Source: a virus (lineage: Duplodnaviria > Caudoviricetes). Taken from it: 24,723 nt of DNA. This document shows, piece by piece, positions 687-24,723 of this stretch. Within the stretch, counting starts at the first letter, position 1; the number at the start of each line of letters is the position of its first letter. A program made the position numbers and the translations under genes. The notes under the pieces were generated by a model. That model was not told the origin of the DNA. It ran no database searches and was given only the letters and a program-made list of their open reading frames with translations. Location of the stretch: positions 1-24,723 of IMG/VR virus record IMGVR_UViG_3300011423_000138; one strand, written 5' to 3'.

Positions 687-2090
687 TTAGAATGTCCAAG
701 TTACTCCAATTTCAGCTTCTGTGATTGGAACTATCGTTGAAGTTTGAGAATAAATTAATTTTGGAGTTGTATCTAATGCTCTGATTGCTGCCGGACTACT
801 TAATGAAATCCTTTTTACTCCATCTCCATCATCAACCAAGAGTGGGTCTATACTTGTCCAACCAGTTGCATTAAGCAATGAAGCGTCAAGTGCAACAGAA
901 TGATAAAAATTAGAGGCATAGTCGAATATTATTTTATGAGTAATTAAACTATCCAACTTTCTACCAACAGTACTAAATTGAAAAATATTTCCAGTGTAAG
1001 ACACAAAACTTGGGTCGAGAACTCTACCACTGCTTCCGCCATAGTCATAACCAGTTGCTATGAATTGAGTACAATTGGAAAAAGTATTGCTATCCACACG
1101 AATATTCTTAGCAGGCGGAAGTTTAGTTTCATCCGCTTCGTCTAAATAACCGCAACCAGTAGCAAAACTGCCTTCCATAAACACTAATGCAGGAGCAAGA
1201 CCAGAGCCAGTCAATCCTTCAAAGTAATTATTTACTATTTGTTGATTCCCGCCATGCACTTTAACTCCAGCAGCTCCATTAAGGAAAAAGTTATCCCTAA
1301 TTTGAGAATTTGAACAAGCTCTTAAAGTCATAGCTCCAGTAGAATTAATGAAAGTATTGTGCCTAAATGTATTGTAACTACATTTATTAGAAATTACTTC
1401 TTGGTCTGCACTGAAATCTTTAAAAACATTGTCATTAACAGTAGCGTAAACTGGAATACTATTAGTTCCAGCACCACTTCCAATCCTTATATCTTCATTT
1501 CCATTTTTTCCTATTGTGGTACGAAGTCCAAACAAACAATTATCTACTTGATAAAATTTATTTGCTGTTGCTACCATATTAATAACTGGGCCCAAGTCTC
1601 TTTTATTTATGAACTCGCAATGGTCTACTCTATTATATTTTCCTTGCATATTAATCCAATACTTCGGAGAACCAGTTGTTATCAAAGTAGAGTGATTGTA
1701 ATTATCAATTACTGTGTTTGTAAGTCTTGAACCGTCAGAGCCAGAACCAAAAAGTACAACTGCATTATTAGCCAAGTTCCAAGGTCCACTCTGAAATAAA
1801 AGTCCAGATACAATATTGTAGTCTCCGTTTATCTGAATTACAGAACCGCCAGTAAGTATTACACTACCTGGAGTTTGTGCATGAATAGTTATTGGCTGTG
1901 CAGCAGTTCCATTTCCTCTGAAGTTAAGAATCATATTGCCAGTCCAAGTTCCATTCAGCAGAGTTATATCATCTCCTGCCGCCCAAACATTCTGCGATTC
2001 GCTATTAAGCAATGCAACTTGAGTATTGTTGTAGCTATAAGTTGCGGCATTGACATAGATAGGTAGCAATAAAAATAATATCTTTTTCAT
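687..2090 (-). CDS. Polysaccharide lyase family 6 (alginate lyase/chondroitinase B-like beta-helix) with N-terminal signal peptide
   Basis: PL6 motifs GDxIxLxNGTW, GTAAQPITIHAQTPG, RVDHCEF, NGNEDIRIG, EVISNK (catalytic Lys position), TLR (catalytic Arg position) and NNYFEGL. N-terminus MKKILFLLLPIYVNA|AT. Confidence 0.85.
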   Translation of the reverse strand: MKKILFLLLPIYVNAATYSYNNTQVALLNSESQNVWAAGDDITLLNGTWTGNMILNFRGNGTAAQPITIHAQTPGSVILTGGSVIQINGDYNIVSGLLFQSGPWNLANNAVVLFGSGSDGSRLTNTVIDNYNHSTLITTGSPKYWINMQGKYNRVDHCEFINKRDLGPVINMVATANKFYQVDNCLFGLRTTIGKNGNEDIRIGSGAGTNSIPVYATVNDNVFKDFSADQEVISNKCSYNTFRHNTFINSTGAMTLRACSNSQIRDNFFLNGAAGVKVHGGNQQIVNNYFEGLTGSGLAPALVFMEGSFATGCGYLDEADETKLPPAKNIRVDSNTFSNCTQFIATGYDYGGSSGRVLDPSFVSYTGNIFQFSTVGRKLDSLITHKIIFDYASNFYHSVALDASLLNATGWTSIDPLLVDDGDGVKRISLSSPAAIRALDTTPKLIYSQTSTIVPITEAEIGVTWTF

Positions 2091-16657: not shown

Positions 16658-18013
16658 TTAATTATTTACATTTGGGTCAACTGGCTCTGGAGCTGCAACT
16701 TCTACTTTAGGCGCAGTATAATAAACATCTCCATCTTCAACGGTATCATATTCAAGCGCCTGAAGGTATTGATTTTTAGTAATAAGCCCTGACTTATATT
16801 GAAGGTCTAATGCTTCAGTTCTATATTTCAAACTTTGACCAGCAGCCATAACTGCATCTTGCAGAACAGCTACATCACCATAATAGCAGGTAACATTAGT
16901 CTCAAAATAAGTAGTATATTTAAGCATATCGCGCTTATTCTCTGGAATCGTAACGTTGTTCAGTAGCCAACGTTCAGATGAAGTACGATTTTCATAGGTA
17001 GCATTTTTACCGCTCATAAGTTCGGCAGGATAAGCATAACGGTCTGCTATCATATCTATGCCTTGTCTTATTGTGTTTTTCAAATCCAATTCAACAGCCG
17101 AGAAACTCATTGGATTCCACTTTAAACCATGACGAGTTACAACGTACTGCCATTGCGACAAAGACAAACCGTACATCTGCAAATCATCCTGAATCTCTTT
17201 TTTCTCTTTTGGATTTAAAGGAACATAACCGGCAACTGGGTCTTTTCCTGAATCTTGACTTATAAAACCAAGTGGACCTTTCTTGCGAAGTAATACATTG
17301 TCTGCTTCCATAGCAGCCATTATATTAGATATAGCCCATTCAAGTCCGGCTATTTTAGAAAGCGGTAATCCCATCTCATCAACTGCATTCATGTAGCCAT
17401 CTCTAACAATGAATATTTTACTCGAAGGAATAACTATATCATCTGCATCCATCCAAGACATATCCATGACCCACTCTTTAATTGGATTTGGGCTACGAAT
17501 TAGTGAAAATTTTTCGTTTTTCATAGGTGTTAGCAACAACGGGTTCAAGTTCCAAAAAAAAGTAGCTGTCTTATCAAGCGAAGATGGCATCTCCATAATA
17601 TAAACAGGGCAGTAACCATATACTTTCTTGTATATCATTTGCTGCCCACGAAACTCGTACCAATCTTGCATAGGGTTTGGGTTGAGTAATCTCTTTTTAA
17701 CGGCTTTGCCATAACGAGATGTATCGTAATCGTAGTCGTCTTGCAGTATCTCGACAACTCCGTTTAAATCAGCGTTAGTCTGTCTGTCAATAACTGAAGC
17801 CAAAGGTGAGCAGTAAAGATATGCCCAGTACTGCATCTGTTTGTTTTGTAGATTCTTCCACATTGGAGAATTACCTGTCAAGATAACGTCTCCTTCGCCA
17901 TTATAAGGAATGAAGCCTACATTCGTGTTAGGTATAGCAGTTGCCATACTTCCGAAGATGTTATTAATCGGACTTGTCAAACTTATCATTCCGCCTTCGT
18001 ACTGGTTGCGCAT
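16658..18013 (-). CDS. Portal protein (HK97-like)
   Basis: LLNPNPMQ...F......K.VYG, GLPLS, GPLGFI, IADRYAYPAEL, NATYEN motifs. An alternative start at 17989 gives an ATGA overlap with the upstream ORF. Confidence 0.9.
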   Translation of the reverse strand: MRNQYEGGMISLTSPINNIFGSMATAIPNTNVGFIPYNGEGDVILTGNSPMWKNLQNKQMQYWAYLYCSPLASVIDRQTNADLNGVVEILQDDYDYDTSRYGKAVKKRLLNPNPMQDWYEFRGQQMIYKKVYGYCPVYIMEMPSSLDKTATFFWNLNPLLLTPMKNEKFSLIRSPNPIKEWVMDMSWMDADDIVIPSSKIFIVRDGYMNAVDEMGLPLSKIAGLEWAISNIMAAMEADNVLLRKKGPLGFISQDSGKDPVAGYVPLNPKEKKEIQDDLQMYGLSLSQWQYVVTRHGLKWNPMSFSAVELDLKNTIRQGIDMIADRYAYPAELMSGKNATYENRTSSERWLLNNVTIPENKRDMLKYTTYFETNVTCYYGDVAVLQDAVMAAGQSLKYRTEALDLQYKSGLITKNQYLQALEYDTVEDGDVYYTAPKVEVAAPEPVDPNVNN

Positions 18014-18186
18014 GAAAAATCAAGTTTGCGTAGTATCGCTACTACTTCGTTATTAATTTTCATTATAACTACATCATCAAATGTTAGAACTTCATCACAG
18101 ATACAAAATAGAGAATCTCCATACCAACGTCTCCTGTAAACTTGGAATATTATCTTTGGTTTCTCTGGAAGTTTCTGATTATCCAC
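17986..18186 (-). CDS. Hypothetical protein (66 aa)
   Basis: GTG start within the CCACAAAAG motif; stop overlaps the alternative portal ATG. Confidence 0.45.
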   Translation of the reverse strand: MDNQKLPEKPKIIFQVYRRRWYGDSLFCICDEVLTFDDVVIMKINNEVVAILRKLDFSCATSTKAE

Positions 18187-18275
18187 AAAAGAAAAAATTG
18201 GTTGGATTGATTAGAAAAAGCAACATAGTGTCTCCAGATAGCCGTACCCGTAACAGGTGGAATATAAGAAGAACA

Positions 18276-18443
18276 CTATGTGCCGTTTATAGGTAGAATT
18301 ATACTCAATAACATTATTATAGCTACAACTATAACGAATCCAGTCAATATCTGTTTCCATAGTCTCGGAAGTGGCATATACCAAACCAATCCAAGACATA
18401 GTGCGATTATTAACAGAAATACGAGTAGATTAGTTGGGTTCAT
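18276..18443 (-). CDS. Small two-transmembrane-helix protein (55 aa)
   Basis: Not in the ORF track. MNPTNLLVFLLIIALCLGLVWYMPLPRLWKQILTGFVIVVAIIMLLSIILPINGT*, overlapping the end of the upstream gene. Confidence 0.7.
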   Translation of the reverse strand: MNPTNLLVFLLIIALCLGLVWYMPLPRLWKQILTGFVIVVAIIMLLSIILPINGT

Positions 18444-19539
18444 TTTTTCTGTATAAGTGGTTATATAAAGCTAATGTCGCAGGACTGAGCGTCTGCTTTA
18501 TGTTGCCCTCGCTTCCTGGCAATTCAACTAATCCATCCAGATATCCAAGTCCGGCATTAAGAGTTGGTATCAGATTCTCATATCCGCCCATCTGATTCTC
18601 CGAAGCTGTTTGGTTGTAAATTCTGCTACCGTATTTTAACTTCATGTAAATATAGTGCATCTGAAGTTGCCACATTCTGCCAGTAACAGGAATCCAGTGC
18701 TGTCCATTCTCGCTTTCTGGAACTCTTAAGCCATTGTTTCCCAAGACGCATCTGCTACGATACTTTTCTGCCATATAGTTACCAATCTCGTATGAAGTTT
18801 CATTCTCGTGAAAAGTTGGGTCTACCATGTGCTGATACTCTGTGAGTGGAATCCCTATGTTGGTACGAGCAAAGCAATCCATAATGTCTATACTGCGATA
18901 TATAGCGGCGAGTATGTTTTCTGAAGTTGCGCCTGCTGTAATGTACTGACGAAGTCTGGTCTGCGAGTCTCCACTATTACCTATACCAAAAATCATAGGC
19001 TCTCCAGTACCTGGCGCGGTAGCCGTTACCGTAACCTCACTCAATAGAGGCTCGTCGTCAAACTCTGCCGAGATTGCTTGCATGAGTTGCTCCCAATAAT
19101 CCAAGTACATTGAAGTCCAGAACATTGGGCAATAATCAGAAGCGTGCTCAAAACCAGGAGTAGTCTCATATCCGCCTTTTTCTAACGGGAATTTCCCTAC
19201 TGCGGTCATCAACCAATCTGGAGCAAAAGCGCCTGGAACAATACGAATCTTGAAGTGAGGAATGATGCCATGCTGAGCCTGCATCTTCCTTCCCCAAGCA
19301 AACATATCACGAAAGATACCGAACTCAAATCTGTTTTCGGCAACCCAAATATGCTTCATGTAAACTCTGATAACAATACTATTGACATGGCGGTAAAAGT
19401 TCAAGTCTGGGTTGTCCATGTTCTGCATCCACTCGTGTTGTCTTAAACAAAGTCCCTGAAGCGGAGGTTTTGCGTTACTCGGAGGTGTCGGCTCTTCAGG
19501 ACACCCTATGCGAAGTTCTATAATTTGTCTTGGTATCAT
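18430..19539 (-). CDS. Glycoside hydrolase-like TIM-barrel protein (clan GH-A, GH42-like)
   Basis: Pattern IVIRV..K.IW..E.RFEF, IRIVPG..APDWL, P.FW...Y...W......I...FD..P.L..V.V.......GEP resembles GH42-type N-terminal barrels. Pro-rich linker near the N-terminus. Confidence 0.55.
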   Translation of the reverse strand: MIPRQIIELRIGCPEEPTPPSNAKPPLQGLCLRQHEWMQNMDNPDLNFYRHVNSIVIRVYMKHIWVAENRFEFGIFRDMFAWGRKMQAQHGIIPHFKIRIVPGAFAPDWLMTAVGKFPLEKGGYETTPGFEHASDYCPMFWTSMYLDYWEQLMQAISAEFDDEPLLSEVTVTATAPGTGEPMIFGIGNSGDSQTRLRQYITAGATSENILAAIYRSIDIMDCFARTNIGIPLTEYQHMVDPTFHENETSYEIGNYMAEKYRSRCVLGNNGLRVPESENGQHWIPVTGRMWQLQMHYIYMKLKYGSRIYNQTASENQMGGYENLIPTLNAGLGYLDGLVELPGSEGNIKQTLSPATLALYNHLYRKNEPN

Positions 19540-19687
19540 AGTTTAAATTTAACAGCATTTCCACAAAAAGAAAAATGTTCGGTCTGGCTAAGGGAATGTT
19601 TTCAACTAATCCGCTGCTGCCTCATAGTTCCTTTCGCTCTTCGACGAACATTTTGAATCTTTCTTCATATGCTTAGGTTTTAATTTA

Positions 19688-20806
19688 TTACGTTCTGTAA
19701 TAGTGGGTGTATGCTCCATACCTTATCGCATCTAACAGGTGATTGTGTCCATCTAACGGCTTGTTAGTAGGATTGCCCATCTCGTCAACCACCCAAATGT
19801 ACTTACTCAATTCGTCTTTTATATCCCTGCCCTGATAATACACATTGTACTCTTTGAGTTTTTCAATCCCAGCCTTAACCGACCCATCTCCTTTCTTTGC
19901 GGCAACAGCTCTCACATCGAGTTGCTTGAGTTGTTTAATCATGTGAGGGTCGTGCTCGCAGTAAACTACACTGTTGTCATCGTACCCATTCGCTACGAGT
20001 AACTCGGTAATCCTTTTAGCCGTCATCGCGCCAGTCTTGTAAGCTAACTCTTCGACATATAAATCGCAATGCTTCTTCAGCTCCATCTTCACTATCGCGG
20101 TAGGGTCATTCGTATAGCCAAAGTCCATAGCGAAGAACGGCTCTTCGAATGGCAGCTCACTTGCTACTTCCCAATCAGGGAAGATTAAACCTACTACATT
20201 TCCGGTTATCCCTCTCGCGTAAACCTTCCACAGCTCTGGATCTTTGATTCCCTCGATATCTGCGTGCTGCCGATCACTAAGAAAGGGGTTGTGTTCATGC
20301 CAAGACCTAAAAAACACAGTGCCTGGTTCGTCTTTCACTTTTTCGTGCGCCCAGAACTTGATAGTAGGGTTGTAGTCAATAATGCTCGTTTCCGACCTCG
20401 AATCTAACTGCCACCACGTCATGTAGTCAAAGGTATTAGCTTCGTTGATAAACAGAATATCCCTCTTAGGACCTCGCGCATCAAACTCCGTCTCGTAGGT
20501 TTTAAACTCCAGAACAGAACCCGAATTAAACAGTGTAACGTGATCACTCTTGCGGTGCTGCTTGATCGCTCCCGAAAACGTAGGCAACACATATCTCTCG
20601 AAATCCCGCATTGCACCTGCTCTCAGGTGCGGGAATGATTTAGAAGTTACTGTGATCGTTTTTACCTGCTCAGAAGCTATCACCGCGAGTGCGCCTAATA
20701 TATTCACCGTCTTGCCGCTGTACTGACCACCCTGATGAATGATGCGTCTCGCGTTTTTTGATCTTACTAGATCGAGAGTTTCTTCGAAAATCACCGATGT
20801 TTTCAT
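19688..20806 (-). CDS. terL: Terminase large subunit (PBSX/SPP1-like)
   Basis: Walker A QGGQYSGKT, Walker B ILFINEA, DYNP, nuclease DFGYTNDPT and D..NH..DA.RY. Likely start MKTS at 20806. Confidence 0.95.
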   Translation of the reverse strand: MKTSVIFEETLDLVRSKNARRIIHQGGQYSGKTVNILGALAVIASEQVKTITVTSKSFPHLRAGAMRDFERYVLPTFSGAIKQHRKSDHVTLFNSGSVLEFKTYETEFDARGPKRDILFINEANTFDYMTWWQLDSRSETSIIDYNPTIKFWAHEKVKDEPGTVFFRSWHEHNPFLSDRQHADIEGIKDPELWKVYARGITGNVVGLIFPDWEVASELPFEEPFFAMDFGYTNDPTAIVKMELKKHCDLYVEELAYKTGAMTAKRITELLVANGYDDNSVVYCEHDPHMIKQLKQLDVRAVAAKKGDGSVKAGIEKLKEYNVYYQGRDIKDELSKYIWVVDEMGNPTNKPLDGHNHLLDAIRYGAYTHYYRT

Positions 20807-20808
20807 AT

Positions 20809-20840
20809 CAAAGATATAACGAATAAATGAGATAACCAAA
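20809..20840 (-). promoter_or_regulatory. Bacteroidota-type housekeeping promoter for terL
   Basis: TTTG (20840-20837), 20 nt spacer, TATCTTTG (20816-20809), matching the -33/-7 consensus; only 2 nt before the ATG. Confidence 0.65.
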
Positions 20841-20950
20841 TAAAGTTTTCAACAGGTCGAAAGTTGAGGAAACAACTGTGGGGGGAACAAGGGCGACAGC
20901 AAAAATTTTAACTTTTTTTTAACAAGTTAAAATTAACTTAAACTTTAGTT

Positions 20951-20982
20951 AAAAAGCTAAGCTGCCGATTTGACAGCTTAGC
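20951..20982 (-). terminator. Intrinsic terminator closing the island transcription unit
   Basis: GCTAAGCTG-N9-CAGCTTAGC then TTTTT on the minus strand, 8 nt after the stop of the 276 aa gene. Confidence 0.8.
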
Positions 20983-20990
20983 GTTAAGCG

Positions 20991-21821
20991 TTAAGCGCTC
21001 AGCTTATAGCTCCCATCAGCTTGCTTAATGAATCCGTTGTCGCTGATAACGGTACGGGCTGTACCATTAAGCGTGCTATAATCATATGAATTCGACTCCT
21101 TTTTATAAGTCGGATATTTAGCAAGCATTTGCTCAAACGTTAAGCCAGCTATTAAATCAGCGTATATTTCAAAGCGCTTGCTGCCAACTTTTTCCGGGTT
21201 GCTGCCATCGCTAAGCTGAGCGGCTAAGCTTTGAGCGCCCGATGTTTGAGCGGCTAAGCTTTTGCCCGTTACACCAGCTTTAATATGTAAAGCTGGTTTA
21301 CCAAACAATTGCAAAAATGAGCTTTTGAGCGTATCCGTTGGCAGCTTAGCGGCTTCAATTAAAGCGTTAAGCTTGTCCATGCTTAATTCAAGCTTATCAC
21401 ATAAATCATATTTAGCTGTATTCAAGCTCATTTCAAGCTCCCGGCTTAAATCCAGCTCAGCAAGCTTTTTATCAAAAGCTTCAAGCTCAGCGCTCGCTAT
21501 CGTAACAGCTTGTACGGTAGCTATAACAGCAGCATTTTTGTAATCAAATTTCGCAGCAAGCATAGCTTCCGTATGAGCTTTATGAGCTTCGAAAAGCTTA
21601 GCTTCAAGCTCAGCTTTTATAGCTTCATTAGCTTCATTTTCAACTTTTTGAGCTTCCAATATCGGGAGCATAAAAGCGGGGATAACTTTTTCAGCTTCCG
21701 GCTGAGCTTCCGGCTGAGCTTCGCCGCTCCCGTTCGTAGCTTGCGGCTCGTTAGCTGGTAAATTTGTTTCGTTCGTTGTTTGCTCATTTGTTGGCTGAGC
21801 TACCGTTTTAACATTTGCCAT
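20991..21821 (-). CDS. Hypothetical 276 aa protein (disordered N-terminus, Ala/Glu/Lys/Leu helical core, small C-terminal domain)
   Basis: Long ORF with an A-rich leader (TTTAAAAATTATG), its own -7 box and terminator. No family recognised. Confidence 0.85.
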   Translation of the reverse strand: MANVKTVAQPTNEQTTNETNLPANEPQATNGSGEAQPEAQPEAEKVIPAFMLPILEAQKVENEANEAIKAELEAKLFEAHKAHTEAMLAAKFDYKNAAVIATVQAVTIASAELEAFDKKLAELDLSRELEMSLNTAKYDLCDKLELSMDKLNALIEAAKLPTDTLKSSFLQLFGKPALHIKAGVTGKSLAAQTSGAQSLAAQLSDGSNPEKVGSKRFEIYADLIAGLTFEQMLAKYPTYKKESNSYDYSTLNGTARTVISDNGFIKQADGSYKLSA

Positions 21822-21854
21822 AATTTTTAAATTTGATCGTTTAATAATGAGCTA

Positions 21855-21900
21855 CAAATGTAGCTATTTTGTTTTGAATAAAAAAGTTAAAATTTGTTAA
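21855..21900 (-). promoter_or_regulatory. Putative promoter of the 276 aa gene
   Basis: TACATTTG -7 box (21862-21855) inside the inverted repeat AGCTACA-aa-TGTAGCT; upstream TTAAC-N5-TTAAC; no clear TTTG at -33. Confidence 0.6.
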
Positions 21901-21915
21901 CAATTGAATTAAGCT

Positions 21916-21993
21916 TTAAGCTTTGTAAAAGCTCAACTTTTGCAGCATTACACAAGCTATATTTTCACGCTCATAATTTGTGTTTTTTGCCAT
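21916..21993 (-). CDS. Possible 25 aa peptide
   Basis: MAKNTNYERENIACVMLQKLSFYKA*, A-rich leader, 10 nt after the preceding stop. Confidence 0.35.
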   Translation of the reverse strand: MAKNTNYERENIACVMLQKLSFYKA

Positions 21994-22003
21994 GTTTTTT
22001 TGT

Positions 22004-22177
22004 TTAAATATTTGACGTTAATATAATACGCTTAGCTTTAAGCTTAGCGCTTTTTTTGTTTGCTATATGCTGAGCTTTGCGCTCGTTTATTTGCTTGCTT
22101 ATTATTGCTATAAAGCCAGCTATAAAAGCTGAGCTTAAAGCAAATGCAATAATATCGGTAATTAATTGAGCGCTCAT
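22004..22177 (-). CDS. Small membrane protein (57 aa, one TM helix plus basic tail)
   Basis: Not in the ORF track. MSAQLITDIIAFALSSAFIAGFIAIISKQINERKAQHIANKKSAKLKAKRIILTSNI*, starting 1 nt after the upstream stop. Confidence 0.65.
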   Translation of the reverse strand: MSAQLITDIIAFALSSAFIAGFIAIISKQINERKAQHIANKKSAKLKAKRIILTSNI

Positions 22178-22178
22178 T

Positions 22179-22376
22179 TTAAAAGTTTTTTATATCGGTG
22201 ATCAAATTTTTTATAGCTACATAGCTAAGCGCTAAGCTATTAAATAAGCCAATAACAACGTACGTGTAAAGCTCATAATTAATACATTCGTAGCTGAGCT
22301 TATAGCTTATAGCTATTATTCCGATAAACGGAATATAAGCTACGAACGGGAGCAATTTTTTAAGCATTTTTTTCAT
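22179..22376 (-). CDS. Small membrane protein (65 aa, two hydrophobic segments)
   Basis: Likely start MKKMLKK at 22376; hydrophobic segments LLPFVAYIPFIGIIAI and YVVIGLFNSLALSYVAI. Confidence 0.65.
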   Translation of the reverse strand: MKKMLKKLLPFVAYIPFIGIIAISYKLSYECINYELYTYVVIGLFNSLALSYVAIKNLITDIKNF

Positions 22377-22400
22377 GTGTGTATTTTTAAATTTGAAACA

Positions 22401-22435
22401 CAAAGCTAAGCAGCCAATCGTTAACGAGATGTTAA
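22401..22435 (-). promoter_or_regulatory. Putative promoter of the small-membrane-protein operon
   Basis: TAGCTTTG -7 box (22408-22401) with upstream TTAAC-N6-TTAAC (22435-22420). Confidence 0.55.
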
Positions 22436-23170
22436 AGCCACATATATTTGTTTCTATAATATATGCTCAGCTTTGAGCTATCGGCTAAGCTCAATATATA
22501 AATAACCGAGCGCGCGCGTATAAGCTTTTAAGCTCAAATGAGCAAAAATTCGAGCTTAAAATGAGCTTAACTTTTGGACCGAAACCTTAAAACGGGCTTA
22601 ACAGCAAGCTCAGCTTATAGCGGTATCAAAAGTTAGCTGAGCGGCTTAAATGAGCTAAAAATGCCCATTTTGACGTTAATTAAATTTAACTTAAAGCCAG
22701 CCGGTAAATTTCATTTAACATAATATACATTATAAGCTTTTTGCTCATTTTTGAGCTTTAAGCCGCTGAAAGTCAAGCTGTTAGCTACTTAACATAATTC
22801 GTTTTTATTGGACACCTTAAAATCCGCTTAATTAACATATCGTTAACATTTTATTCCAAAAATTTTTTGTACCTTGCCTATAATTTTTGCCATGCTCAAA
22901 TTCTTAGCATTTAGCTAAAATATTTGGTATGTTAAAGCTAAGCAATTTAGCCAAAAAACAGCCCGCTCAGCTCATATAATAAAATATTCTAATGTATATT
23001 GGAAGCATGGTTTAAGCTCAAATTTTGCTCAAAGCTCAGCTTAAAGCACATATATAAATAATCTAAATATGAAGCCGCTCCCGCTCATTAAGCTGTCATT
23101 CTGTCAGGTATGCTTAGCCAGCTATTGGCTTAAAGCAGCTACCATGCTAAGCCAGCTATTAGGCATTGCA

Positions 23171-23254
23171 CAGTACCAGTGGATGCCTAGTACTAGGCGA
23201 GACCCAGTACCAGGTCAAGCCAAGATCCATGCCAAACCTAGATCTAGGTGAGAC
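23171..23254. repeat. Twin 14 bp perfect palindromes, each followed by GAGAC
   Basis: GCCTAGTACTAGGC (23185-23198) and ACCTAGATCTAGGT (23236-23249). The first is flanked by the direct repeat CAGTACCAG (23171-23179, 23205-23213). Confidence 0.9.
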
Positions 23255-23339
23255 ACACATCCGCCGAAATTTCCAGATTTACCTTTCGGGTTTTTACTTC
23301 TGAGATTTCCACAAAAAGAAAAATGCCAAAAGTCGTTTT

Positions 23340-23822
23340 CTAAATAGTCGTTTCTGATTTCTCGAATTCCGAATTTGAGAGTTTCGGCATATCGTCTGGC
23401 TTGATCACCTCTATGTGCACAGTTGTAGCTCCATTTCCGCCATCAACATCTCTTCCAAGATCAAGCTTCCTGATACTCATGTTCGCGTTGAAGATTCCGA
23501 CCATTGCGTACTCAAAGTTCTGCGCGTAGATCACCTGCAATATCTTCTGGGCAACCAGGTGGTAATCTCCAGCAGCTGAGTTCCTGGCAATGTCATTAAT
23601 GTACTGAACTGTGATACCGCAGTGCAGACATAGCGCAGGTAGATTAAACGGTCTCGGGTACTGCGTAGCAACAACTGCACCAGTCTGCTTGATTACCTCT
23701 TCCTTGTAGATCGGATTAGCCTCGCACCACATGAAGTACTCGAGAGCGTCATTCCATAAATCTTCTGGGCGATTCCCTGAGGATCTCGCCTTCACCATCC
23801 AGTGATTAACTGTGTTGTCCAT
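23340..23822 (-). CDS. terS: Terminase small subunit (P22 gp3-like DNA packaging protein)
   Basis: PEDLW..A.EYF.WCE.NP, RPF....LCL.CGI, A.VG.FNAN...R.L.L motifs. Confidence 0.88.
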   Translation of the reverse strand: MDNTVNHWMVKARSSGNRPEDLWNDALEYFMWCEANPIYKEEVIKQTGAVVATQYPRPFNLPALCLHCGITVQYINDIARNSAAGDYHLVAQKILQVIYAQNFEYAMVGIFNANMSIRKLDLGRDVDGGNGATTVHIEVIKPDDMPKLSNSEFEKSETTI

Positions 23823-24168
23823 AGTAGGTGTTTATTAGGTTCTGAAAATCATCCAATGTTCTTACGATAGCAAAGTGCCATCCGCACTCCATTCCGAGTT
23901 TAGCAAACTCCTCCTGTTCGGCGCTCAATTTGCCGTTGCCGACCTTGAACTCAATCCATACGATAGGCTTACGTATAAGAAACGCATCCCAAGTACCCTT
24001 GACGATGCCAGTGGTCTTATTGAGTGCGCCCATCCTCATGCCCATCACTCCCTTCATATCGGTTTCATTCTTTACTCTTCGGAACTTTCCGCGATGATCT
24101 CGCATGGTGTTCTGAAACCAGATAGTGCATTCTGCTTGGAGCTGAATCTCGCTTATTTGCTTCTCCAT
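23806..24168 (-). CDS. VRR-NUC domain nuclease
   Basis: E..LQ..C..WF, G...G..D, IEFK...GKLS.EQ..F motifs (PD-(D/E)XK). Confidence 0.88.
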   Translation of the reverse strand: MEKQISEIQLQAECTIWFQNTMRDHRGKFRRVKNETDMKGVMGMRMGALNKTTGIVKGTWDAFLIRKPIVWIEFKVGNGKLSAEQEEFAKLGMECGWHFAIVRTLDDFQNLINTYYGQHS

Positions 24169-24347
24169 ATTACTGCGTATTTGTTTATTAGATCCTGTGA
24201 TACCTTAAAGCGCCTTCTTGTGTTGATTTTATTCAGTTTCTCGATTATTTCTGTTGATTCCTCCAAAGAAATTGTGTATTTCTCCCCAATTTCTGCGAAA
24301 TATAGAAGCTTCTCGAGTATAGATTTAACATCTGTAGTATGTTTCAT
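24153..24347 (-). CDS. Hypothetical protein (64 aa)
   Basis: Co-oriented ORF overlapping the VRR-NUC start. Confidence 0.5.
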   Translation of the reverse strand: MKHTTDVKSILEKLLYFAEIGEKYTISLEESTEIIEKLNKINTRRRFKVSQDLINKYAVIWRSK

Positions 24348-24704
24348 GTAACGTATTGATTATCAATGAGATATAAATATTACGTCGTTTTTTAGCGTCT
24401 TACATATAACACATTGATTCTCAATAATTTGCAAATATTGGGCATTTCTGAAAGTTGTGGGTTAATTTTACAGCTACTTTTGACGCAACTCGCTGATTAT
24501 CAATGCTTTAGATGAAAAGGTTGTGGGTTGTTCCTAATTATTTATTATAGCGCTGCTGTATATATACATAATAACACATAGTATATTCTAATATATGTAG
24601 TATCTATTAGAAATCTCATATTTTTGGGTTTAATGCTTGCTATATATAATATTACATACAACCCTAAACTTTTACACCTAACACAATGAGTATCAATACG
24701 TTAC
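24348..24704. repeat. Four copies of a quasi-palindromic motif AAC-N4-TGAKTMTCAAT in an AT-rich non-coding region
   Basis: Copies start at 24348, 24406, 24485 and 24678. The outer two form a perfect 13 bp inverted repeat (GTAACGTATTGAT / ATCAATACGTTAC). Confidence 0.8.
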
Positions 24705-24723
24705 GAATTTTTGGTATGAAAAA

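What the first reader, a model, noticed from the sequence alone, without database searches (positions are those of the whole stretch)
20895..23160. A 2.3 kb island written in a restricted DNA vocabulary: AG is almost always AGC, and AGA/AGG are purged
Seen: about 88 AGCT sites in ~2.2 kb (one per ~25 bp; base composition predicts under ten). No AGA/TCT in 20833-22426, where dozens are expected and they are abundant elsewhere in the window. Only one AGG/CCT in 20895-22580, and AGT mostly as AAGTT. The bias affects both strands, coding and non-coding DNA alike, and ends abruptly at ~23160. The island splits terS from terL and has its own host-type promoters and terminator. Inference: this is the genome end, long terminal repeat or first-injected DNA (compare the T5 first-step-transfer and SPO1 terminal regions), under motif-level selection. 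Options: (a) it avoids a context-specific phage DNA modification so host RNA polymerase can read it (7-deazaguanine insertion is context-specific in some phages); (b) it evades a host defence with a very short target (DarT toxins modify TCT/TNTC-type motifs in ssDNA) until a counter-defence is made; (c) AGCT is a dense binding, methylation or decoy array. I know no described system with this signature.
Basis: partly seen in the sequence, partly recalled or inferred. Interest (0 to 1): 0.92.

Follow-up and report, generated by a model that had tools for sequence, protein, structure and literature searches.

The report
Phage region rewritten in private dialects
In a family of uncultured phages one sharply bounded 2-kb gene cassette over-uses a different short DNA word in each lineage (here nine in ten AG are followed by C, in genes and spacers alike), likely because a biased, local DNA-copying process rewrites the stretch beside a predicted genome end or origin.

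Summary
There are 88 AGCT against 9 expected, and no AGA/TCT over 1.6 kb against 68 expected. The best-fit segment is 20950-23160, between terS and terL of a Bacteroidota-type phage. It is a family trait: 10 lineages carry a 1.7-2.7 kb cassette upstream of terL, each over-using a different word (AGCT, CAGCC, ACTAGCGTTAG, AGTAC, CGCG, CCAAAGCAG) that resets synonymous codons of the cassette's long gene. All share loss of AGA/TCT; AG/CT is the most or second-most flank-distorted core in 9 of 10. AGCT itself is not conserved. Avoidance alone cannot give the excess (20±3 expected in the gene, 38 seen). A one-parameter AG[A/G/T]-to-AGC conversion model is the best of 128 such rules. Exact 17- and 19-nt inverted copies between different genes point to local templated copying. 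Contig depth steps up about threefold at the terL-side border in other runs, a weak hint of a packaging end or origin. Best reading (0.45): biased local re-synthesis, a by-product drive. Close rival (0.3): selection for a bound or methylated word plus purge of near-cognates, which fits slightly better with two parameters. No enzyme is shown.

The parts
20950..23160 (.). Dialect island: AG followed by C on both strands, AGA/AGG/AGT purged
   Evidence: change-point fits; counts
20991..21821 (-). 276-aa island gene: predicted disordered N-terminus, long coiled-coil hairpin and a C-terminal helix-turn-helix-plus-hairpin domain; homolog in 6 close lineages at 24-43% identity; function unknown
   Evidence: no Pfam or PHROG family, no PDB fold match at E<=0.001, Atlas wHTH-type rows TM 0.50-0.57, under the naming bar
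22004..22177 (-). 57-aa hydrophobic ORF; short hydrophobic ORFs sit at the same place in relatives
22179..22403 (-). 74-aa hydrophobic ORF, 51% identical to its homolog in L002
22404..23160 (.). Non-coding leader with the same bias (AGA+TCT observed/expected 0.22, below all 32 background windows)
20956..20982 (-). Intrinsic-terminator-like hairpin (11 pairs plus T run) built from dialect words; relatives have hairpins of other sequence here
21855..21862 (-). Bacteroidota -7 element (TAnnTTTG) upstream of the 276-aa gene; a second at 22401-22408 upstream of the 74-aa ORF; no -33 element found for either
   Evidence: consensus from PMC6847099
21726..21742 (.). Exact 17-nt inverted copy shared with 22337-22353 (two different genes), bounded by GCT/AGC words
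21606..21624 (.). Exact 19-nt inverted copy shared with 22118-22136 (two different genes)
20845..20900 (-). terL-side border motif conserved in position across the family; the depth step and, in relatives, a strain-swap breakpoint fall here
20809..20840 (-). Full Bacteroidota-type promoter (TTTG, 20 nt, TATCTTTG) in front of terL, outside the island; same site in L003, L004, L005, L008
19688..20839 (-). Terminase large subunit (flank)
   Evidence: phrog_2 E 1e-25, PF17288
23340..23822 (-). Terminase small subunit, P22 gp3-like (flank)
   Evidence: phrog_606 E 5e-23, PF16677
23187..23247 (.). Cluster of 4 of the window's 5 CTAG sites just outside the terS-side border

Best explanation
The island is a small gene cassette that is likely re-synthesised by a biased, template-switching DNA synthesis step confined to the stretch beside a predicted packaging end or origin, which in this lineage would turn AG-A/G/T into AG-C and copy short tracts between AGC/GCT sites. 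Shown: the bias, its sharp borders, its presence in 10 lineages with different words, the shared AG/CT core, copied tracts, and reading frames and terminator kept intact. Inferred: that the terL-side border is a DNA end or origin (depth hint, swap breakpoint, DnaA-like boxes in relatives); that the words come from mutation or repair bias rather than selection; and that the agent is the family's AEP primase-polymerase/helicase (primases start 5'-AG on 3'-TC) or a methyl-directed patch repair. On this view the words are a by-product, as proposed for cyanobacterial HIP words, but local.
For: (1) AG is kept at 1.18 times expectation while its 3' neighbour becomes C. A one-parameter conversion model gives 4-mer deviance 587-709, against about 2100 (null), 1486-1672 (avoid only), 955-1025 (select AGC) and 1203-1250 (select AGCT), and it also predicts low ACC, high CGC and AGCG above AGCC. 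AG>C is the best of 128 single rules (-65% deviance; next -42%). (2) Exact copies of 15 nt or more lying 60 nt or more apart: 4 vs 0.5 in 5-mer-preserving shuffles (0 of 100 reach), two of them inverted between different genes. Repeated 12-mers exceed 4-mer-preserving shuffles in 11 of 11 islands (z 5-26). L024 and L025 differ by unit copy number and by multi-base changes at word sites. (3) Words do not follow kinship: 4-mer profiles correlate 0.64 for window vs L004 (terL 70%) but 0.34 vs L002 (terL 88%). (4) The L002 island ignores its genome's CTAG purge, 18 vs 0.3. (5) Border: depth step in X2 and X3 (all 6 right bins above all 24 left bins). L005 and L007 differ at 64 columns, all in the first 590 of 3490. 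DnaA-like boxes lie upstream of terL in 13 of 17 family loci. (6) 4 of the 4 related replication modules scanned carry a PriCT-2/VapE primase-helicase, and no polymerase A or B family hit appeared among 113 ORFs. Primases start 5'-AG: PMC5934617 and PMC10250227, passages.
Against: A two-parameter selection model (avoid AG-A/G/T and favour AGC) fits slightly better (deviance 489-562). In relatives a single rule explains only 13-28% of the deviance, and an AG or CT rule is best in 4 of 11. The information sits 3' of AG in the window but mainly 5' of it in L002, L005, L018, L025 and L026, so a fixed primer extension is not general. My neutral template-switch simulations never purged AGA (observed/expected 0.71-1.20 in 28 runs). 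There is no clear hypermutation in the L024/L025 pair (4-fold sites differ 0.15 in the island gene vs 0-0.13 in 11 conserved genes; an upstream gene differs 0.35), and the L005/L007 differences are ordinary transitions. Depth comes from low-cover contigs, continues past the island's other border, and could be a mosaic strain. This phage's own replication genes lie outside the window, and it has no perfect DnaA-like box at the border.
Confidence: 0.45

Rival explanations
1. Selection for a functional word: a phage or host protein (the island's own helix-turn-helix protein, TerS or a methyltransferase) binds or marks AGC/GCT densely along the end-proximal DNA, while near-cognate AG words are harmful and purged; protein and word would co-drift in each lineage.
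For: Best numerical fit for the window, with two parameters. The AG/CT core is singled out in 9 of 10 islands. The island gene ends in a confident HTH-like model (pLDDT 91). Relatives carry different methyltransferases: C5 in G003, Dam-family in G004, N6/N4 in G008, phrog_757 in L002 and G008. L005 and L037 share both a C-terminal type and CGCG.
Against: Window, L001, L002 and L004 share the predicted recognition helix (LNGT-R-VI) and, for three of them, TerS at 76-77% identity, yet use different words. L002 and G008 share phrog_757 but not words (4-mer correlation -0.06). Close strains lose words at synonymous sites (CG 46 vs 38). AGCT spacing peaks at 5, 7 and 12 nt, not at one helical turn.
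Confidence: 0.3
2. Avoidance of a short-motif host defence that sees the end-proximal DNA most (PAM-dependent spacer uptake from free ends, a DarT-type ssDNA toxin), with tolerated words then spread by ordinary slippage.
For: AGA/TCT is down in 10 of 10 islands and TCTC/GAGA in 10 of 10, in leaders and genes and on both strands. Avoidance plus copying reproduces low entropy and arbitrary winners such as CGCG at 7-8 times. Localised motif avoidance in first-injected DNA is known for type I R-M (PMC12455610, abstract).
Against: It leaves AG at 0.23-0.42 and AGC at 2.1 times or less (8 runs), vs 1.18 and 5.9 seen. Protein-fixed avoidance gives 20±3 AGCT vs 38. TTT is up in 10 of 10 and TTTC and TGTC are mixed, against the DarT motifs read in PMC7003065. 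CTAG is tolerated in the L002 island. One study found no spacer excess at cos ends (PMC13575424, passage).
Confidence: 0.15
3. The cassette avoids a context-specific phage hypermodification so that host RNA polymerase can read it.
For: AG-centred, lineage-specific gaps would suit relaxed-specificity modifiers, and relatives swap methyltransferases.
Against: PF01702 (TGT) matched 0 of 5 related records, 3 of them at least 90% complete (DpdA may be too distant for this model). No queuosine-pathway or glycosyltransferase hit among 113 ORFs. The terL promoter lies in ordinary sequence. It gives no reason for the excess.
Confidence: 0.06
4. Foreign DNA from a donor with this bias, or an assembly artefact.
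For: Strains swap the island at its border.
Against: Contigs of other runs match the island and bridge both borders. The L002-type island was assembled near-identically in 5 records. Orthologous island genes carry different biases, so one donor cannot explain them. No relative was found in GTDB genomes by the terL patterns.
Confidence: 0.04

Closest known systems
Cyanobacterial highly iterated palindromes (HIP1 and alternative HIPs; Elhai 2015, PMC4390886, passages and first part of section 3.4 read)
   Same: One short word far above expectation, different words in different lineages, coding DNA rewritten; a methyl-directed repair ratchet is proposed in which the word is a by-product.
   Different: HIPs are genome-wide at about one per kb; here about 40 AGCT per kb within 2.2 kb and none beyond. 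The attractor is the 3-mer AGC, not a palindrome, and some lineages use oriented non-palindromic units. No matching methyltransferase is shown.
Restriction-site-free first-injected regions (Autographiviridae leading region, PMC12455610, abstract read; T5 first-step-transfer DNA and T7 early region recalled)
   Same: Sharply local motif bias in a variable, end-proximal cassette of small genes.
   Different: Those lose long R-M sites only. Here 3-mers are purged, another word is gained 6-11 times, and a genome-avoided palindrome (CTAG) is abundant in one island.
Polymerase mutation footprint next to the ColE1 origin (Allen 2011, PMC3167613, abstract read)
   Same: A different, less faithful polymerase can leave a kilobase-scale footprint beside an origin.
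   Different: That is an engineered error-prone Pol I with a gradual decline; here natural, two sharp borders, word-level and lineage-specific.
Terminal short-repeat arrays (T7 SRL/SRR heptamers, T5 injection-stop region; recalled, no call)
   Same: Short repeated words near a packaging terminus.
   Different: Those are short non-coding arrays; here the words run through three genes and a terminator over 2 kb.

Membership tests
HIP-type word drive | Word over-represented across the whole genome | tested here: not met
   confined to one segment in the window and in 10 of 11 records with an island; AGCT 1.15 times outside
HIP-type word drive | Different lineages fix different words | tested here: met
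HIP-type word drive | Palindromic word | tested here: inconclusive
   AGCT, CGCG and AGTACT are palindromes; (CAGC)n and CCAAAGCAG are oriented
HIP-type word drive | Resident methyltransferase whose site matches the word | not testable with these tools
   relatives have methyltransferases of unknown specificity; this phage's gene and its host are not held
R-M-site-free first-injected region | Region lies at the end that enters first | tested here: inconclusive
   depth step at one border only, from contigs; direction of entry unknown
R-M-site-free first-injected region | Stronger loss of the sites the genome already avoids, no gain of words | tested here: not met
   CTAG 18 vs 0.3 in L002, CGCG 4 vs 0.3 in L025; L018 and L025 lack CTAG (0 vs about 5); AGC gain beyond avoidance
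DarT-target avoidance | Loss of TNTC, or of TCT and TTT | tested here: not met
   TCT and TCTC down 10 of 10, but TTT up 10 of 10, TTTC up 5 of 10, TGTC up 3 of 10 (motifs from PMC7003065)
7-deazaguanine-modified phage | DpdA/TGT and preQ0 pathway genes | tested here: not met
   relatives only: PF01702 0 of 5, none among 113 ORFs; this phage's other half is not held
Long direct terminal repeat (T5/SPO1 type) | Doubled read depth bounded on both sides by the repeat ends | tested here: inconclusive
   rise at about 20.8 kb, no fall at 23.16 kb or up to 24.7 kb; no raw reads
Binding-site array for the island's own HTH protein | Recognition helix changes with the word | tested here: not met
   near-identical predicted helix in 4 lineages with 4 different words; binding itself not testable

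The most novel reading that the evidence does not exclude
A phage family writes its end- or origin-proximal cassette with a dedicated low-fidelity primase-polymerase whose AG-anchored errors and template switches impose a heritable, lineage-specific dialect on the DNA, overriding codon choice and restriction-site avoidance: a natural, region-limited sequence drive that records which enzyme made the DNA and may diversify the early genes.
Probability: 0.3. Interest if true: 0.9.

Novelty: categorically new. Interest (0 to 1): 0.74.

Why it matters
Short-word bias in phage genomes is usually read as genome-wide avoidance of host defences. Here it is local, it includes gain as well as loss, it differs between phages whose terminase and portal proteins are about 90% identical, and it rewrites codons. 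Either an unrecognised biased synthesis or repair step acts on about 2 kb next to a terminus or origin, or an unknown protein or defence reads AG/CT contexts there. Ten natural replicates with different words make the two directly testable, and they bear on the open question of whether HIP-type words are selected or by-products. The signature could also mark termini or origins in metagenomic phage contigs.

Tried and rejected
Island protein as a query found nothing in viral contigs by its own patterns or in 50,697 phage records; a profile search gave 10 unnamed proteins. The wider search over 1.84 billion representatives could not be run, and the wide VIA fold search had not finished, so remote homology of this protein is open. 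No cultured close relative: terL 37% or less, capsid about 28% to Flavobacterium phages. No RNA holder was listed, so expression is untested. Rfam gave one chance hit. Sigma-70 scan was at chance level. Neutral template-switch simulations (28 runs) did not purge AGA. Avoidance-plus-copying runs without a G+C restraint mostly drifted to extreme composition and were set aside (20 copying runs). Excess stacking stability in 10 of 10 islands looked like an annealing signature, but simulated AG avoidance gives the same value, so it was dropped as independent evidence. A fixed primer starting at AG was rejected as a general rule. The TTTGGTTA at the border, which I recalled as the NrS-1 priming site, is the -33 part of the terL promoter. 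A UV or APOBEC-type C-to-T signature (recalled) was rejected because CC is not lowered and TCA and TCG are little changed. A Chi array was not supported: no word is common to the lineages. The search for a contig with this phage's own primase found none. Records for L029, L031, L045 and L049 were not held whole. Four look-ups of earlier findings returned nothing and a fifth one unrelated item. Rows left out of the 10-island counts: duplicate records and near-identical strains (L006, L007, L023, L024, L027-L036, L043-L046, L048, L050, L051; L029 stood in for L001), L037 (partial, used where 11 is stated), and loci with too little or no island sequence (L009, L019-L022, L038-L042, L047, L049, L052).
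Full report
1. The observation. There are 88 AGCT in 20895-23160 against 9.1 at the rate of the rest of the window; no AGA/TCT in 20833-22426 against 67.8; one AGG/CCT in 20895-22580 against 30; and 13 of 18 AGT/ACT sites are AAGTT/AACTT. On both strands 279 of 309 AG are followed by C. Change-point fits for the purge and for the excess give the same segment, 20950 to 23155-23160. The bias acts on DNA, not on codons: in the 276-aa gene no GAN or GGN codon follows an A-ending codon, against 38 and 12 after other endings. One contig of a run that may be this DNA's source spans 17000-24723 with no difference. Contigs of other runs bridge the left border (X4, 20810-21039) and the right border (X2, 22994-23360; X3, 22968-23253).

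2. The setting. The window is part of a tailed phage: terS 23340-23822, terL 19688-20839, then portal, protease and HK97-type capsid, all on the minus strand. A promoter of the Bacteroidota type (TTTG, 20 nt, TAnnTTTG; consensus in PMC6847099, passages) precedes terL at 20816, outside the island. The best capsid hits are Flavobacterium phages at 28%; no cultured phage is close. No relative was found in GTDB genomes by the terL patterns. The island holds a leader, two short hydrophobic ORFs, a 276-aa ORF and a terminator. The long ORF is predicted as a coiled-coil hairpin plus a helix-turn-helix-and-hairpin domain, with no family or fold match and only 10 unnamed homologs.

3. It is a family trait with private words. 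TerL searches gave 9 and 18 viral loci and 25 metagenome loci. After removing duplicates I compared 10 islands: window, L001, L002, L003, L004, L005, L008 (terL 69-88%) and L018, L025, L026 (50-58%). Nine have terS located upstream by tblastn; L005 does not. L037 is a partial eleventh. In 10 of 11 records with an island, the window of most predictable sequence is the island (robust z 3.8-14.7; G008 and L025 are strains of one lineage); in G003 it is second (z 3.0). G007, whose terL is 51% identical and which has no such gap, shows no outlier (maximum z 2.9). Each island over-uses other words: (CAGC)n in L004, ACTAGCGTTAG in L002, AGTACT and AAGCA in L003, CGCG in L005 and L037, CCAAAGCAGCC in L025, TGGCA and TGAC in L018. 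Codons of the long island gene follow suit: alanine is GCT in 36 of 43 here, GCA in 37 of 51 in L025, GCG in 13 of 22 in L005. AGC/GCT is lowered in L001 and L005, so AGCT is not the conserved thing.

4. What is shared. Against its own genome, AGA/TCT is lower in 10 of 10 islands (log2 -0.2 to -3.9), TCTC/GAGA in 10 of 10 and GAG/CTC in 9 of 10. The leader's AGA+TCT ratio is below every background window in 7 of the 7 records tested. With proteins fixed, the island gene lies below all other genes tested in 8 of 10, one of these having a single comparator. Of ten dinucleotide cores, AG/CT has the most or second-most distorted flanks in 9 of 10 (4e-6 if lineages were independent, which they are not fully). 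The restricted side differs: 3' of AG here (1.66 bits at +1, 0.02 at -1), mainly 5' in L002, L005, L018, L025 and L026.

5. Avoidance is not enough. Keeping the protein and forbidding AG[A/G/T] gives 20±3 AGCT and 74±6 AGC+GCT (maxima 28-29 and 88-89 in 300 draws at the two strongest penalties) against 38 and 120 seen. Simulated avoidance plus copying leaves AG at 0.23-0.42 and AGC at 2.1 times or less (8 runs); the island has 1.18 and 5.9. DarT motifs fit badly: EPEC DarT takes TCT or TTT and the Thermus enzyme TNTC (PMC7003065, passages), but TTT is raised in 10 of 10 islands and TTTC and TGTC are mixed. Restriction-site avoidance is not tighter everywhere: the L002 island has 18 CTAG against 0.3, although L018 and L025 have none against about 5. 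No TGT-family gene was found in 5 related records and no queuosine-pathway or glycosyltransferase hit among the 113 ORFs submitted, a non-structural subset of those of 70 aa or more. This phage's own replication half is not held.

6. Conversion and copying. A model in which AG[A/G/T] is turned into AGC on either strand at 10-20 times the background mutation rate reproduces AG 1.13-1.21, AGC 4.9-5.7 and AGCT 7.6-9.5, along with low ACC and high CGC. Its deviance is 587-709, against about 2100 for the null and 955-1672 for the one-parameter selection models; it misses on AGCA (4.1-4.5 vs 2.5) and TGC. A two-parameter model that penalises AG[A/G/T] and rewards AGC does a little better (489-562), so the fit does not decide between drive and selection. 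Among 128 single context rules AG>C wins clearly here (-65%). In relatives the best rule removes 13-28%, as do the best rules in some background windows (up to 32%), and an AG or CT rule is best in 4 of 11. Copying is seen directly in the sequence. A 17-nt and a 19-nt stretch each occur twice, inverted, in different island genes, both bounded by AGC/GCT words. Distant exact pairs of 15 nt or more number 4 against 0.5 (0 of 100 shuffles reach). This excess is clear in 6 of 11 islands and not in L004, L005, L008, L018 or L026. L024 and L025 differ in the number of 9-nt units and by multi-base changes at word sites. Neutral copying alone did not purge AGA in 28 toy runs.

7. Why here. In runs X2 and X3 summed contig depth averages 1.2 over 24 bins left of 20760 and 4.4-4.5 over the 6 bins to the right, every right bin above every left bin; X4 shows a weaker step and X6 has too little cover to tell. 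The tool warns that contig depth is a poor measure. Depth does not fall at 23160, and a second strain sharing only this arm would look the same, so this is a hint. Strains L005 and L007 differ at 64 columns, all before the border, and are identical over the next 2.9 kb; L006 shows the same pattern. A DnaA-like box (consensus recalled) lies within 900 bp upstream of terL in 13 of 17 family loci, not in this one. So the border is likely a packaging end or an origin; I cannot tell which, nor which end enters first.

8. Mechanism. I commit to biased local re-synthesis (0.45). The stretch beside the end or origin would be made or repaired by a step with AG-anchored errors and short template switches, words acting as landing sites, while selection keeps the frames and the terminator. 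The candidate agent is the family's primase-polymerase/helicase, found in all 4 related replication modules scanned, with no polymerase A or B hit. Human PrimPol and E. coli DnaG start on 3'-GTC and PrimPol makes an AG dimer (PMC5934617, PMC10250227, passages). A polymerase can leave a footprint of more than a kilobase beside an origin (PMC3167613, abstract). A methyl-directed ratchet as proposed for HIP words (PMC4390886) is the other candidate. Against it: no clear rate excess in L024 vs L025, and ordinary transitions between L005 and L007. The main rival is selection for a bound or methylated word with purge of near-cognates (0.3). It fits the numbers, but four lineages with a near-identical predicted recognition helix use four different words.

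9. Novelty. Ten full-text searches found local avoidance of long R-M sites (PMC12455610, abstract), genome-wide HIP words and an engineered polymerase footprint, but no local, lineage-specific word rewriting in a phage. The library lacks most subscription journals and I opened no supplements, so absence from print is not shown. The feature fails a defining test of each known kind tried. I rate the phenomenon as new in kind, with the caveat that its cause may reduce to known enzymes. Interest 0.74.

Noticed in passing
window 23187-23247: Four of the window's five CTAG sites and two GATC sit in 100 bp just outside the terS-side border, although both words are purged elsewhere.
   Followed up: partly
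window 19560 and 23305 region; L004, L008 and others: A recurring TTTTCTTTTGTGGA-type motif precedes many genes in the close relatives (11 copies in G002, 12 in G003, none in G008 by the pattern used); it may be a late promoter or regulator site.
   Followed up: no
L001, L004, L005, L018, L019, L025, L026, L037, L040-L042, L047, L052, upstream of terL: DnaA-like boxes next to the terL promoter in 13 of 17 family loci: an origin or replication-gated late transcription.
   Followed up: partly
window 687-2090: 467-aa gene with a chondroitinase B (PF14592) domain, likely a tail depolymerase; G008 has a pectate-lyase-type protein in its tail region.
   Followed up: no
window 18430-19539; L004:11251-12957: A variable gene sits between terL and portal: 369 aa with no family here (59% identical in L002), 568 aa with a weak glycoside hydrolase 42 hit in L004; L002 also has a phrog_757 methyltransferase there.
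   Followed up: no
L015:10201-11106 and L015:11544-12422: Exonuclease (phrog_5715) next to a conserved 292-aa unknown (phrog_3657) whose nearest named Atlas clusters are Rad52/RecT/Sak annealases at scores of only 0.76-0.78; possibly an unrecognised annealase.
   Followed up: partly
L019 1-50 (G006) and L006 1-150: Two contigs begin at or just inside the terL-side island border, and G006 (42 kb) has no terS hit, suggesting assemblies break at this border.
   Followed up: partly
L005, L008, L025, L026, L019 near the border: A GGGGAAAAAATTCCCC-type hairpin recurs at the island's terL-side end in both clades.
   Followed up: no
L021 1-114 vs L022 4535-4648: The start of L021 is an inverted copy of the end of the gene before terL; assembly artefact or inversion.
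   Followed up: no
L040 upstream of terL: A third type of island: a coiled-coil gene followed by a short hydrophobic ORF, with milder bias.
   Followed up: no
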